Assembly (NCBI RefSeq): GCF_011045215.1
Contig: NZ_CP049201.1
DNA from: Escherichia coli
Lineage (GTDB): Bacteria > Pseudomonadota > Gammaproteobacteria > Enterobacterales > Enterobacteriaceae
Reading direction: 5' to 3' (one strand)
DNA: 64,000 nucleotides
The translations under genes and the position numbers were made by a program. The notes under the pieces were generated by a model that was not told the origin of the DNA, searched no databases, and saw only the letters and a program-made list of their open reading frames with translations. Position 1 is the stretch's first letter. Each line of letters opens with the position of its first letter. This document shows positions 22,390-23,042 of the stretch, one piece after another.

Positions 22390-23042
22390 TGGCAGGATTC
22401 ATTACATTTCTTTGTTCTTTCTGAGCATCGCATTCAGGATGGTCAGCAGTTTGCGCATACAGGCTACCAGTACCGCCGTAGTCATTACGCCGATGCCTTT
22501 AATGTTGCTCAGGTGCTCAGTTGGTTCTTTAAAATGGTTCCGGATGTGGGGGGGTATCTTCCAGCGCTTTGATGATATTAATGTTTTTTGCTTTACGGGG
22601 GAGCCGGGTACAACCTGTTTCGCTCAGTAACTGGTATAGCGATCAACTGGCGTCTGCGAACGACTATGGCATTAAGAACCTGACGTTCTGCATCCGGCAA
22701 AGTCCGGATAAAGCGGTTTCGTTCCGGATGGTAATTAATAACTGCAGCCATCTGGGCAAAAACCCGCGCATCAATGCGGTCAGTCTTCGCCAGATATCCC
22801 ATCGCACGGGCAAAGTGGGGTTAACTACGGCGATCTCAAAACCTTCGGGCTGAAACGTACAGGTTATGGTGGCCTTCCATCAACACAAAGGCTATATCGT
22901 GCTGCCTCAGTTCAGCGATGATGAAATCAAAGCCGTCAGCACCACTGGCAACAGAAAACAGTTCAATAGTGTTGCTGGCGGCAATATCCAGCGTTGTTTT
23001 GGACACATCGGTATCGACACAAAGTGGATTTGGCAGACTCAT
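22390..23042 (-). pseudogene. IS110-family transposase remnant, frameshifted and truncated
   Basis: Three minus-strand frames carry IS110 N-terminal (DTDVSKTTLDIA...VLMEGHHNLY), middle ([11 protein letters not shown]) and C-terminal (IKGIGVMTTAVLVA) motifs within ~650 bp, too short for an intact gene. Confidence 0.6.

What the first reader, a model, noticed from the sequence alone, without database searches (positions are those of the whole stretch)
22390..23042. Decayed IS110-family transposase
N-terminal, middle and C-terminal IS110 transposase motifs are found in three different minus-strand frames within about 650 bp, indicating frameshifts plus internal deletion. This is a scar of past mobile-element activity inside the paralog cluster.
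Basis: seen in the sequence. Interest (0 to 1): 0.2.

Follow-up and report, generated by a model that had tools for sequence, protein, structure and literature searches.

The report
Dead IS110 insertion sequence remnant
This is the decayed remnant of an RNA-guided (IS110-family) jumping gene lodged between two genes of an Escherichia genomic island; it lacks its catalytic core but keeps its guide-RNA region, is already annotated as a pseudogene in E. coli genomes, and is ordinary.

Summary
Window 22390-23042 (minus strand) holds pieces of an IS110-family transposase in three reading frames (tblastn E 5e-62 to an intact 322-aa relative).

The whole remnant is larger than reported. It spans about 22351-23219, or 867 bp against 1167 bp for the closest intact element. 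It includes the 21-nt right end and a full-length 175-nt left end. The left end carries the family's bridge-RNA module (covariance model hit of 171 bits, E 2e-37).

- **Lesions:** a 240-bp in-frame deletion removes codons 212-291, including the catalytic serine. There are also 26-, 17-, 13-, 4- and 1-bp deletions, a 1-bp insertion, a nonsense codon and a mutated right core (CT to AT).
- **Insertion site:** the remnant's own guide loop still matches its flank. An E. coli strain with the unoccupied site has C-CT-TAC at the predicted junction.
- **Distribution:** the same remnant sits at the same place (Gp2-family gene | remnant | yfjI) in 197 complete E. coli genomes. NCBI's annotation pipeline (PGAP) already labels it "IS110 family transposase, frameshifted; incomplete".
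- **Selection:** I found no evidence of selection on the orphaned guide RNA.

Novelty is nil and interest is low.

The parts
22346..22350 (-). Right target flank (RT), TACGT on the minus strand. It pairs with the remnant's own right target guide.
   Evidence: the 3' side of the remnant's target loop, AUGUAAG, is the reverse complement of CTTACAT. The flank reads (A)TTACGT, giving 5/7 Watson-Crick pairs plus one G.U; the remaining mismatch is the mutated core base. The living sibling IS in L020 sits at CTTACGTGA.
22351..22352 (-). Right copy of the core dinucleotide, ancestrally CT and now AT
   Evidence: Alignment with seven intact copies, all ...ACAGTTG-CT-flank. All three remnant copies read ACAGTTA-AT.
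22353..22373 (-). Right non-coding end (RE), 21 nt. The terminal base is mutated G to A.
   Evidence: aligns to L002 3970-3990 at 84-86% identity.
22374..23042 (-). Pseudo-CDS of the IS110-family recombinase (669 bp against 969 bp intact).

Lesions relative to the intact relative:
- 17-bp deletion (~22876)
- 13-bp deletion (~22817)
- TAA nonsense codon (22593-22595)
- 1-bp deletion (~22590)
- 4-bp deletion (~22584)
- 26-bp deletion (~22550)
- 240-bp deletion (junction ~22470/22471; codons 212-291, including the catalytic Ser)
- 1-bp insertion (22409), giving a premature stop at 22402-22404

The ancestral stop is at 22374-22376.
   Evidence: Ser240-Gly241 of P0003 corresponds to S241-G242 of IS621, by alignment to the related ISCro4 chain and the published IS621 description.
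23043..23217 (-). Left non-coding end (LE), 175 nt, with a full-length bridge-RNA module.

- Target-binding loop domain: 23111-23169. Outer stem CGTATGC (23163-23169) pairs with GCATACG (23111-23117). Left target guide loop: 23147-23158. Hairpin: 23135-23146. Right target guide loop: 23126-23134.
- Donor-binding domain: ~23043-23090. ACAGTTG lies at 23080-23086 and GCAAG within 23052-23059.
   Evidence: Covariance model built only from 6 intact LEs: a single window hit at 23043-23219(-), 171.1 bits, E 2.4e-37, model positions 1-177/177. The RNAalifold consensus is kept in the remnant. The target loop is identical to that of a living E. coli IS.
23218..23219 (-). Left copy of the core dinucleotide CT (AG on the + strand), intact
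   Evidence: in all intact copies the core CT lies directly before TGTATC. The window reads TTTCAC-CT-TGTATCC.
23220..23233 (-). Left target flank (LT): GGATCTTCTTTCAC on the minus strand. It contains a window-specific TTT insertion.
   Evidence: alignment (window against L001/L006). The match to the left target guide is only partial (about 4-5 of 7), so this is weaker evidence than the right side.

Best explanation
An IS110-family insertion sequence of the IS110 subgroup, with its bridge RNA encoded in the left end upstream of the recombinase gene, once inserted by bridge-RNA-guided recombination at a CT core. The site lies in the intergenic region between an inovirus-Gp2/YagK-YfjJ-family gene and a yfjI (DUF3987) gene of a CP4-type genomic island. 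The element then died in place.

An early 240-bp in-frame deletion removed the serine-bearing core of the Tnp domain. Deletions of 26 and 4 bp, a 1-bp insertion and mutation of the right core and terminal base (TTG-CT to TTA-AT) followed. These lesions are shared by every copy examined. Later, lineage-specific lesions accumulated: a 17-bp deletion shared with E. coli ECSC054, and a 13-bp deletion, a 1-bp deletion and a nonsense codon found only in this window.

The fossil was inherited and spread with the island. It cannot make a recombinase, and its right junction can no longer be recognised, so it is immobile. The left end still has the sequence and fold of a bridge RNA but has no cognate enzyme in cis.

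- **Shown:** homology, the lesion map, the element boundaries, the empty site, the guide-flank match, and the shared locus in many genomes.
- **Inferred:** the order of the lesions, and the lack of expression and function.
For: - **Homology:** tblastn E 4.9e-62 to the intact 322-aa IS110 transposase P0003, which carries PF01548 + PF02371.
- **Intact relative defined:** two insertions of the same element in different contexts (L002 and L003) set its limits at 1167 bp.
- **Lesion map:** based on three remnant copies.
- **Family insertion rule:** it was established on independent intact elements. The 3' side of the first internal loop of the LE is the reverse complement of CT + 5 nt of right flank. 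It matches 7/7 in L002, L008, L011, L016, L018 and L019, and 6/7 in L003, L014 and L020 (the odd position a G.U or G.T wobble) and in L015 (a plain mismatch). The 5' side matches the left flank + C, with best matches 8/8 in L014 and 7/7 in L003 and L016. This is the architecture published for IS621 (PMC11208160).
- **The remnant obeys the rule** at its right flank.
- **Empty site:** E. coli STEC308 has CGCC-CT-TACTGTGAC at the predicted junction.
- **Full-length LE:** covariance model hit of 171 bits.
- **Same locus** in 197 complete E. coli genomes, and PGAP annotates a pseudogene there.
- **Catalytic Ser:** it lies in the deleted segment.
Against: - No intact copy of exactly this element was found. 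The best living relatives are 80% identical in the CDS (Salmonella/Providencia type) or 92-100% identical in the LE only (an E. coli 1170-bp IS), so the ancestor is reconstructed rather than observed.
- The left-flank to left-guide match of the remnant is weak (about 4-5 of 7).
- In the empty-site strain the sequence on the LE side is too diverged to confirm that junction to the base.
- Expression of the LE RNA was not tested.
Confidence: 0.94

Rival explanations
1. The remnant is a non-autonomous element that is still mobilisable, or still recombinogenic, in trans. A living sibling IS with the same target- and donor-binding loops would supply recombinase and bridge RNA, and would act on the remnant's ends.
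For: - A living 1170-bp E. coli IS (L018, L019, L020) has a target-binding loop identical to the remnant's and the same donor-guide ACAGTTG.
- The remnant's left junction (CT-TGTATC) is intact, and its LE is full-length.
- IS621 bridge RNA works in trans (PMC11208160).
Against: - The right core is AT rather than CT, and the terminal RE base is mutated in all copies. Core mismatches are poorly tolerated in IS621.
- All 197 full-length copies lie in the same flanking context (searches give the same count with and without flanks).
- No second copy exists in the window.
Confidence: 0.03
2. The remnant has been domesticated. Either the orphan bridge RNA or a truncated protein (RuvC-like domain plus coiled coil) is kept by selection for a host or island function.
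For: - Remnant copies are 97.5-98% identical between the window and L001, while the flanking genes are 89-93% identical.
- One E. coli lineage (L006) has an open 223-codon frame (P0001).
- The LE fold is kept, with a compensated pair.
Against: - Different copies carry different frameshifts and a nonsense codon.
- Outside a ~180-bp mosaic tract in L006 (alignment columns 360-540), the pseudo-CDS is as conserved as the LE, so there is no differential constraint on the RNA.
- The compensated pair and the GCAAGAA variant are also present in the living sibling IS, so they are inherited.
- No promoter-like site above chance upstream of the LE in the integrated state.
- The higher divergence of the flanking genes is expected from recombination with their many paralogs.
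Confidence: 0.03
3. The gene is intact, and the frameshifts are sequencing or assembly errors.
For: Short indels are typical sequencing errors.
Against: 300 bp net are missing, including one block of 240 bp. The shared lesions recur in independent complete genomes and assemblies.
Confidence: 0.005

Closest known systems
Orthologous pseudogene annotated by PGAP in E. coli (for example FE985_RS26505 in strain ECSC054, NZ_AP024112.1)
   Same: Same remnant, same locus (Gp2-family gene | remnant | yfjI) and same ancestral lesions. Identity is 95-96% overall and 97.5% within aligned pseudo-CDS positions.
   Different: The window copy has an extra 13-bp deletion, a 1-bp deletion and a nonsense codon. 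It lacks two 1-bp deletions seen in ECSC054. PGAP annotates only part of the pseudo-CDS (594 bp) and none of the LE or RE.
Unnamed 1167-bp IS110-family element of Salmonella/Providencia (322-aa transposase P0003/P0006; the relative P0044 is labelled ISKpn42 by NCBI)
   Same: It is the closest intact coding sequence, 80% nt identity over 662 bp and 86% over the 3' end. The layout is the same: 175-nt LE, CDS, 21-nt RE, CT core, RE end ACAGTTG and LE start TGTATC.
   Different: The target-binding loop sequence differs (GATCCCTCCAG / GCCGGTAAG), so the target differs (..TCCCTC-CT-TACCG). The 5' part of the LE is only 69-78% identical. This element is intact and present at several sites.
Unnamed 1170-bp E. 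coli IS110-family element (323-aa transposase WP_000082158.1 / WP_000082157.1; L018-L020)
   Same: The target-binding loop and hairpin are identical, and the LE is 92-100% identical. The target type is the same..CCC-CT-TACAT / TACGT.
   Different: The CDS is only about 60-72% identical in nt. This element is intact and active-looking, interrupting cas3f, yehI and a plasmid gene. The remnant's ancestor therefore combined this LE type with a Salmonella-type recombinase gene.
IS621 (E. coli; the reference bridge-RNA recombinase, PDB 8WT6)
   Same: Both belong to the IS110 subgroup and share these features:
- a DEDD RuvC-like domain plus a Ser-bearing Tnp domain;
- a bridge RNA in the LE with two internal loops;
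- a 5' loop side that pairs with the bottom strand and a 3' side that pairs with the top strand;
- a CT core.
In intact relatives of the remnant, a promoter-like TTGCTT-17-TAAAAT would form across the RE-LE junction of a circle (the promoter reading is my inspection of the sequences).
   Different: IS621 is only a distant protein relative of this clade (phmmer E 2.6e-32 for P0003). Its natural targets are REP sequences (ATCAGGCCTAC), which differ from this clade's targets.

Membership tests
IS110 family (IS110 subgroup, bridge-RNA-guided) | N-terminal DEDD RuvC-like domain (Pfam PF01548) | tested here: met
   tblastn aa 1-163 of P0003 at 69% identity, E 4.9e-62. D12, the E of LME and KTDRIDA are still readable. 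The Pfam hit for the isolated fragment is sub-threshold (21.1 against 29 bits) because the domain is broken by two deletions.
IS110 family (IS110 subgroup, bridge-RNA-guided) | C-terminal Tnp domain (PF02371) with the conserved catalytic serine | tested here: not met
   Only the first ~9 and last ~30 residues of the domain remain. Codons 212-291, including Ser240 (equivalent to IS621 S241), are deleted in all copies. The Pfam hit is 14.6 bits against 21.3. This shows the sequence is a dead derivative by descent, not a functional member.
IS110 family (IS110 subgroup, bridge-RNA-guided) | Long non-coding left end upstream of the CDS encoding a bridge RNA with target- and donor-binding internal loops | tested here: met
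   A covariance model from 6 intact LEs hits 23043-23219(-) full length, 171 bits. The consensus fold is kept. No Rfam 15 family matched.
IS110 family (IS110 subgroup, bridge-RNA-guided) | Guide loops complementary to the element's own insertion site and to its own ends | tested here: met
   Right guide AUGUAAG against flank (C>A)TTACGT gives 5/7 pairs plus a G.U. The donor guide ACAGTTG equals the RE end ACAGTT(G>A). The rule was verified on seven distinct intact elements, counting L018-L020 as one element. The left guide match is weak.
IS110 family (IS110 subgroup, bridge-RNA-guided) | No terminal inverted repeats; insertion at a short core (CT) present on both sides | tested here: inconclusive
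   The left core CT is intact (23218-23219). The right core reads AT (22351-22352) and is interpreted as a post-insertion mutation. The empty site in STEC308 has a single CT at the junction. Terminal inverted repeats were not searched for formally.
Active (autonomous) insertion sequence | Uninterrupted recombinase ORF and multiple or polymorphic insertion sites | tested here: not met
   There are eight lesions in the CDS. The locus is the same in all 197 genomes that carry the full-length remnant.

The most novel reading that the evidence does not exclude
The orphaned left end is still transcribed into a working bridge RNA. Together with recombinase from the living 1170-bp sibling IS (which has an identical target loop), it would make this island locus, with its intact LT-CT-RD left junction, a preferred substrate for RNA-guided insertion, inversion or deletion. 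A dead IS would then act as a recombination hotspot that reshapes the island.
Probability: 0.04. Interest if true: 0.4.

Novelty: already known. Interest (0 to 1): 0.1.

Why it matters
It matters little. The remnant is a routine IS pseudogene that public annotation already flags. There are three minor points of value:
- It is a clean natural example of a fossil IS110 whose own bridge-RNA guide still reads its insertion site. The insertion can therefore be reconstructed to the base and confirmed against an empty site.
- It shows modular shuffling between bridge-RNA ends and recombinase genes among enterobacterial IS110 elements.
- It serves as a phylogenetic marker for one lineage of CP4-type islands in Escherichia.

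Tried and rejected
1. **Selection on the orphan bridge RNA.** The LE looked more conserved (97.7-98.9%) than the pseudo-CDS between the window and L006 (91.7%). A sliding comparison showed the excess divergence is confined to alignment columns 360-540, where L006 is partly closer to the living E. coli IS. That is a local recombination tract, not constraint on the LE.

2. **Rfam.** No bridge-RNA family matched. There was a weak sX15 hit (27.4 bits against a gathering score of 55, E 0.16) on the opposite strand at 23030-23183. It is absent from the intact relative L002, so I treat it as chance.

3. **Promoter scan.** There are no sigma-70-like sites above the shuffle expectation for the LE in its integrated state.

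4. **Second copy or intact partner in the window.** None was found by tblastn, blastn or the covariance model.

5. **Closer intact relative.** The search of 5.8 billion proteins gave only the less-decayed orthologous remnant (P0001, 82%) and then 65% identity over the conceptual translation. No living copy of exactly this element was seen.

6. **Left-guide against left-flank match for the remnant and for L011.** The match is poor, so the left side of the target rule rests on the other elements.

7. **tRNA scan.** No tRNA gene lies in the window, so the island's integration site was not identified.

Full report
**1. Observation**

Translating the minus strand of window 22300-23300 in all three frames shows IS110-type transposase sequence in pieces:
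- One frame holds the N-terminus (MSLPNPLCVDTDVSK...LME) and the middle (..[21 protein letters not shown]).
- A second frame holds two short pieces ([12 protein letters not shown] and NINIIKALED).
- A third frame holds the C-terminus (HIRNHFKEP..IKGIGVMTTAVLVACMRKLLTILNAMLRKNKEM*).

tblastn of an intact 322-aa relative (P0003) against the whole window gives aa 1-163, 186-214 and 292-312 in two frames with E 4.9e-62. Nothing else in the 64 kb scores significantly. Isolated fragments score below Pfam thresholds, as expected for fragments.

**2. Relatives and the true extent of the element**

A search of 5.8 billion proteins returned first a 223-aa E. coli protein (P0001, 82% identity). This proved to be a less decayed copy of the same remnant at the same locus (L006). 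After it came hundreds of intact 321-323-aa IS110-family transposases from Salmonella, Providencia, Serratia, E. coli and others, at no more than 66% identity to the conceptual translation.

Two insertions of the closest intact element in different contexts (L002 and L003) share exactly one block. Combined with the junction analysis below, this defines a 1167-bp element: core CT, a 175-nt left end (LE), a 969-bp CDS and a 21-nt right end (RE).

Aligning the window to this element shows that the remnant runs from 23219 down to 22351 on the minus strand. It is 867 bp long and includes both ends.

**3. Lesions**

- **Shared by the window, E. coli ECSC054 (L001) and E. coli GCA_027224725 (L006):**
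  - a 240-bp in-frame deletion (junction ~22470/22471; codons 212-291);
  - a 26-bp deletion (~22550);
  - a 4-bp deletion (~22584);
  - a 1-bp insertion (22409) that creates a premature stop;
  - mutation of the last RE base and the right core (TTG-CT to TTA-AT).
- **Shared by the window and L001 only:** a 17-bp deletion (~22876).
- **Window only:** a 13-bp deletion (~22817), a 1-bp deletion (~22590) and a TAA nonsense codon (22593-22595).

The 240-bp deletion removes Ser240-Gly241 of the intact relatives. This is the counterpart of the catalytic S241-G242 of IS621. In IS621, mutation of S241 abolishes recombination (PMC11208158). The nested pattern of lesions is the normal trajectory of a pseudogene. 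It also excludes sequencing error.

**4. How the living relatives work, and what the remnant still shows**

The LEs of intact relatives align well and fold into two domains:
- a long stem enclosing an internal loop around a small hairpin;
- a second stem-loop.

Two pairs in these stems show compensatory changes.

Seven distinct intact elements were compared (L002/L003, L008, L011, L014, L015, L016 and L018-L020). In each, the 3' side of the first internal loop is the reverse complement of CT plus the next five bases of the right flank. It matches 7/7 at six insertion sites and 6/7 at the other four; at three of these (L003, L014, L020) the odd position is a G.U or G.T wobble, and at L015 it is a plain mismatch. 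The 5' side equals the left flank plus the core C (8/8 in L014; 7/7 in L003 and L016). The second domain contains ACAGTTG, which equals the RE end, and GCAAG, which is complementary to CT-TG at the LE start.

This is the bridge-RNA logic published for IS621. The 5' loop sides pair with the bottom strand and the 3' sides with the top strand, and the core is included in both (PMC11208160).

The remnant's LE is full-length. A covariance model built only from six intact LEs gives one hit in the window, at 23043-23219(-), with 171 bits, E 2.4e-37 and model positions 1-177 of 177. Its right guide AUGUAAG still matches its own flank (ancestral C, now A)TTACGT, with five Watson-Crick pairs and one G.U.

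An E. coli strain (STEC308) has the Gp2-yfjI intergenic region without the element. At the predicted junction it reads CGCC-CT-TACTGTGAC. The insertion, its mechanism and its boundaries are therefore reconstructed with good support. The exception is the left flank: its match to the left guide is weak, and the sequence has diverged in the empty-site strain.

**5. Mosaic ancestry**

A living 1170-bp E. coli IS has a target-binding loop and hairpin identical to the remnant's. It carries a 323-aa transposase (WP_000082158/57). It was found in plasmid pE166_2, inside cas3f of strain STEC299 and inside yehI of an O157:H16 strain. Its LE is 92-100% identical to the remnant's, but its CDS is only ~60-72% identical. 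The Salmonella-type element shows the reverse pattern: 69-78% in the 5' part of the LE and 80-94% in the CDS. The remnant's ancestor therefore combined one LE type with another recombinase type. No living copy of that exact combination was found.

**6. Is the fossil more than a fossil?**

Three checks say it is not.
- **Conservation.** The apparent extra conservation of the LE disappears once a ~180-bp mosaic tract in L006 is set aside. Elsewhere the pseudo-CDS is as conserved as the LE.
- **Reading frames.** Copies differ in their frameshifts, and the open 223-codon frame exists in only one lineage.
- **Expression and mobility.** There is no promoter-like site above chance upstream of the LE in the integrated state. 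In intact relatives, a TTGCTT-17-TAAAAT promoter would form only across the RE-LE junction of an excised circle (my reading of the sequences, in line). The remnant cannot form that circle, because its right core is mutated. All 197 full-length copies in complete E. coli genomes sit in the same flanking context, so there is no sign of mobilisation in trans.

**7. Context**

The window is chromosomal Escherichia DNA. Bases 1-9000 are the gsp type II secretion operon, at most about 97% identical to E. coli. The region from about 10 kb onward is a CP4-type island. It carries a GTPase, a WYL-HTH regulator, DUF4942 and DUF932 genes, YfjI/DUF3987, several YagK/YfjJ (inovirus Gp2 family) paralogs and a UvrD-like helicase with ankyrin repeats.

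The remnant lies 44 bp downstream of the Gp2-family gene (21577-22308) and 260 bp upstream of yfjI (23479-25083). It is antisense to both.

**8. Comparison with known elements, and verdict**

By descent this is an IS110-family element of the IS110 subgroup. Its recombinase clade is a distant relative of IS621 and ISCro4 (E ~1e-32). It fails the functional criteria: it has no Ser-bearing Tnp core and no intact frame, its right core is mutated, and it occupies a single fixed locus. PGAP already annotates the orthologous sequence as a frameshifted, incomplete IS110 family transposase.

Novelty is "already known" and interest is low. The remaining non-trivial possibility is that the orphan bridge RNA or the intact left junction still interacts with the living sibling IS. 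I rate this at a few per cent.

Noticed in passing
L019 (E. coli STEC299, NZ_CP022279.1 3170041-3171210) and L020 (O157:H16, NZ_CP062876.1): The living 1170-bp IS110-family element that shares the remnant's target loop has split the type I-F cas3f gene in STEC299 and the yehI gene in an O157:H16 strain. Both insertions are at ..CCC-CT-TACAT/TACGT sites.
   Followed up: partly
L006 6001-6672 (E. coli GCA_027224725.1), orthologous to window 22402-23042: In this lineage the remnant has an open 223-codon frame (P0001). It also has a ~180-bp tract that is 73-87% identical to the window copy, while the rest is 92-100% identical. The tract is partly closer to the living E. coli IS, which suggests a gene-conversion patch between IS110 relatives.
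   Followed up: partly
window 45000-53000: A chaperone-usher fimbrial cluster is 99.1% identical over its full length to only one record among 5,426 complete E. coli genomes, a 214-kb plasmid of bovine strain C5 (NZ_CP010123.1). Other E. coli match only about 57% of it, at 85% identity.
   Followed up: no
window 29240-32152 (+): A 970-aa ORF in the island combines UvrD/SF1 helicase motifs with C-terminal ankyrin repeats (Pfam). This may be a defence-type gene; I did not examine it.
   Followed up: no
window 21577-22308 (+) against L001 5279-6009: The Gp2/YagK-YfjJ-family gene next to the remnant is intact in the window (243 aa) but is annotated as frameshifted in E. coli ECSC054. The flanking island genes differ more between copies (89-93% identity) than the remnant does (97.5%).
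   Followed up: partly
window 23030-23183 (+): There is a sub-threshold Rfam hit to the Xanthomonadaceae sRNA sX15 (27.4 bits, gathering score 55, E 0.16), antisense to the remnant's left end. It was not reproduced on the intact relative L002 and is probably chance.
   Followed up: yes
window 1-9000 and whole window: The gsp type II secretion operon is at most about 97% identical to any complete E. coli genome. No tRNA gene lies in the 64 kb although an island starts near 10 kb. The host may be a divergent Escherichia lineage.
   Followed up: no
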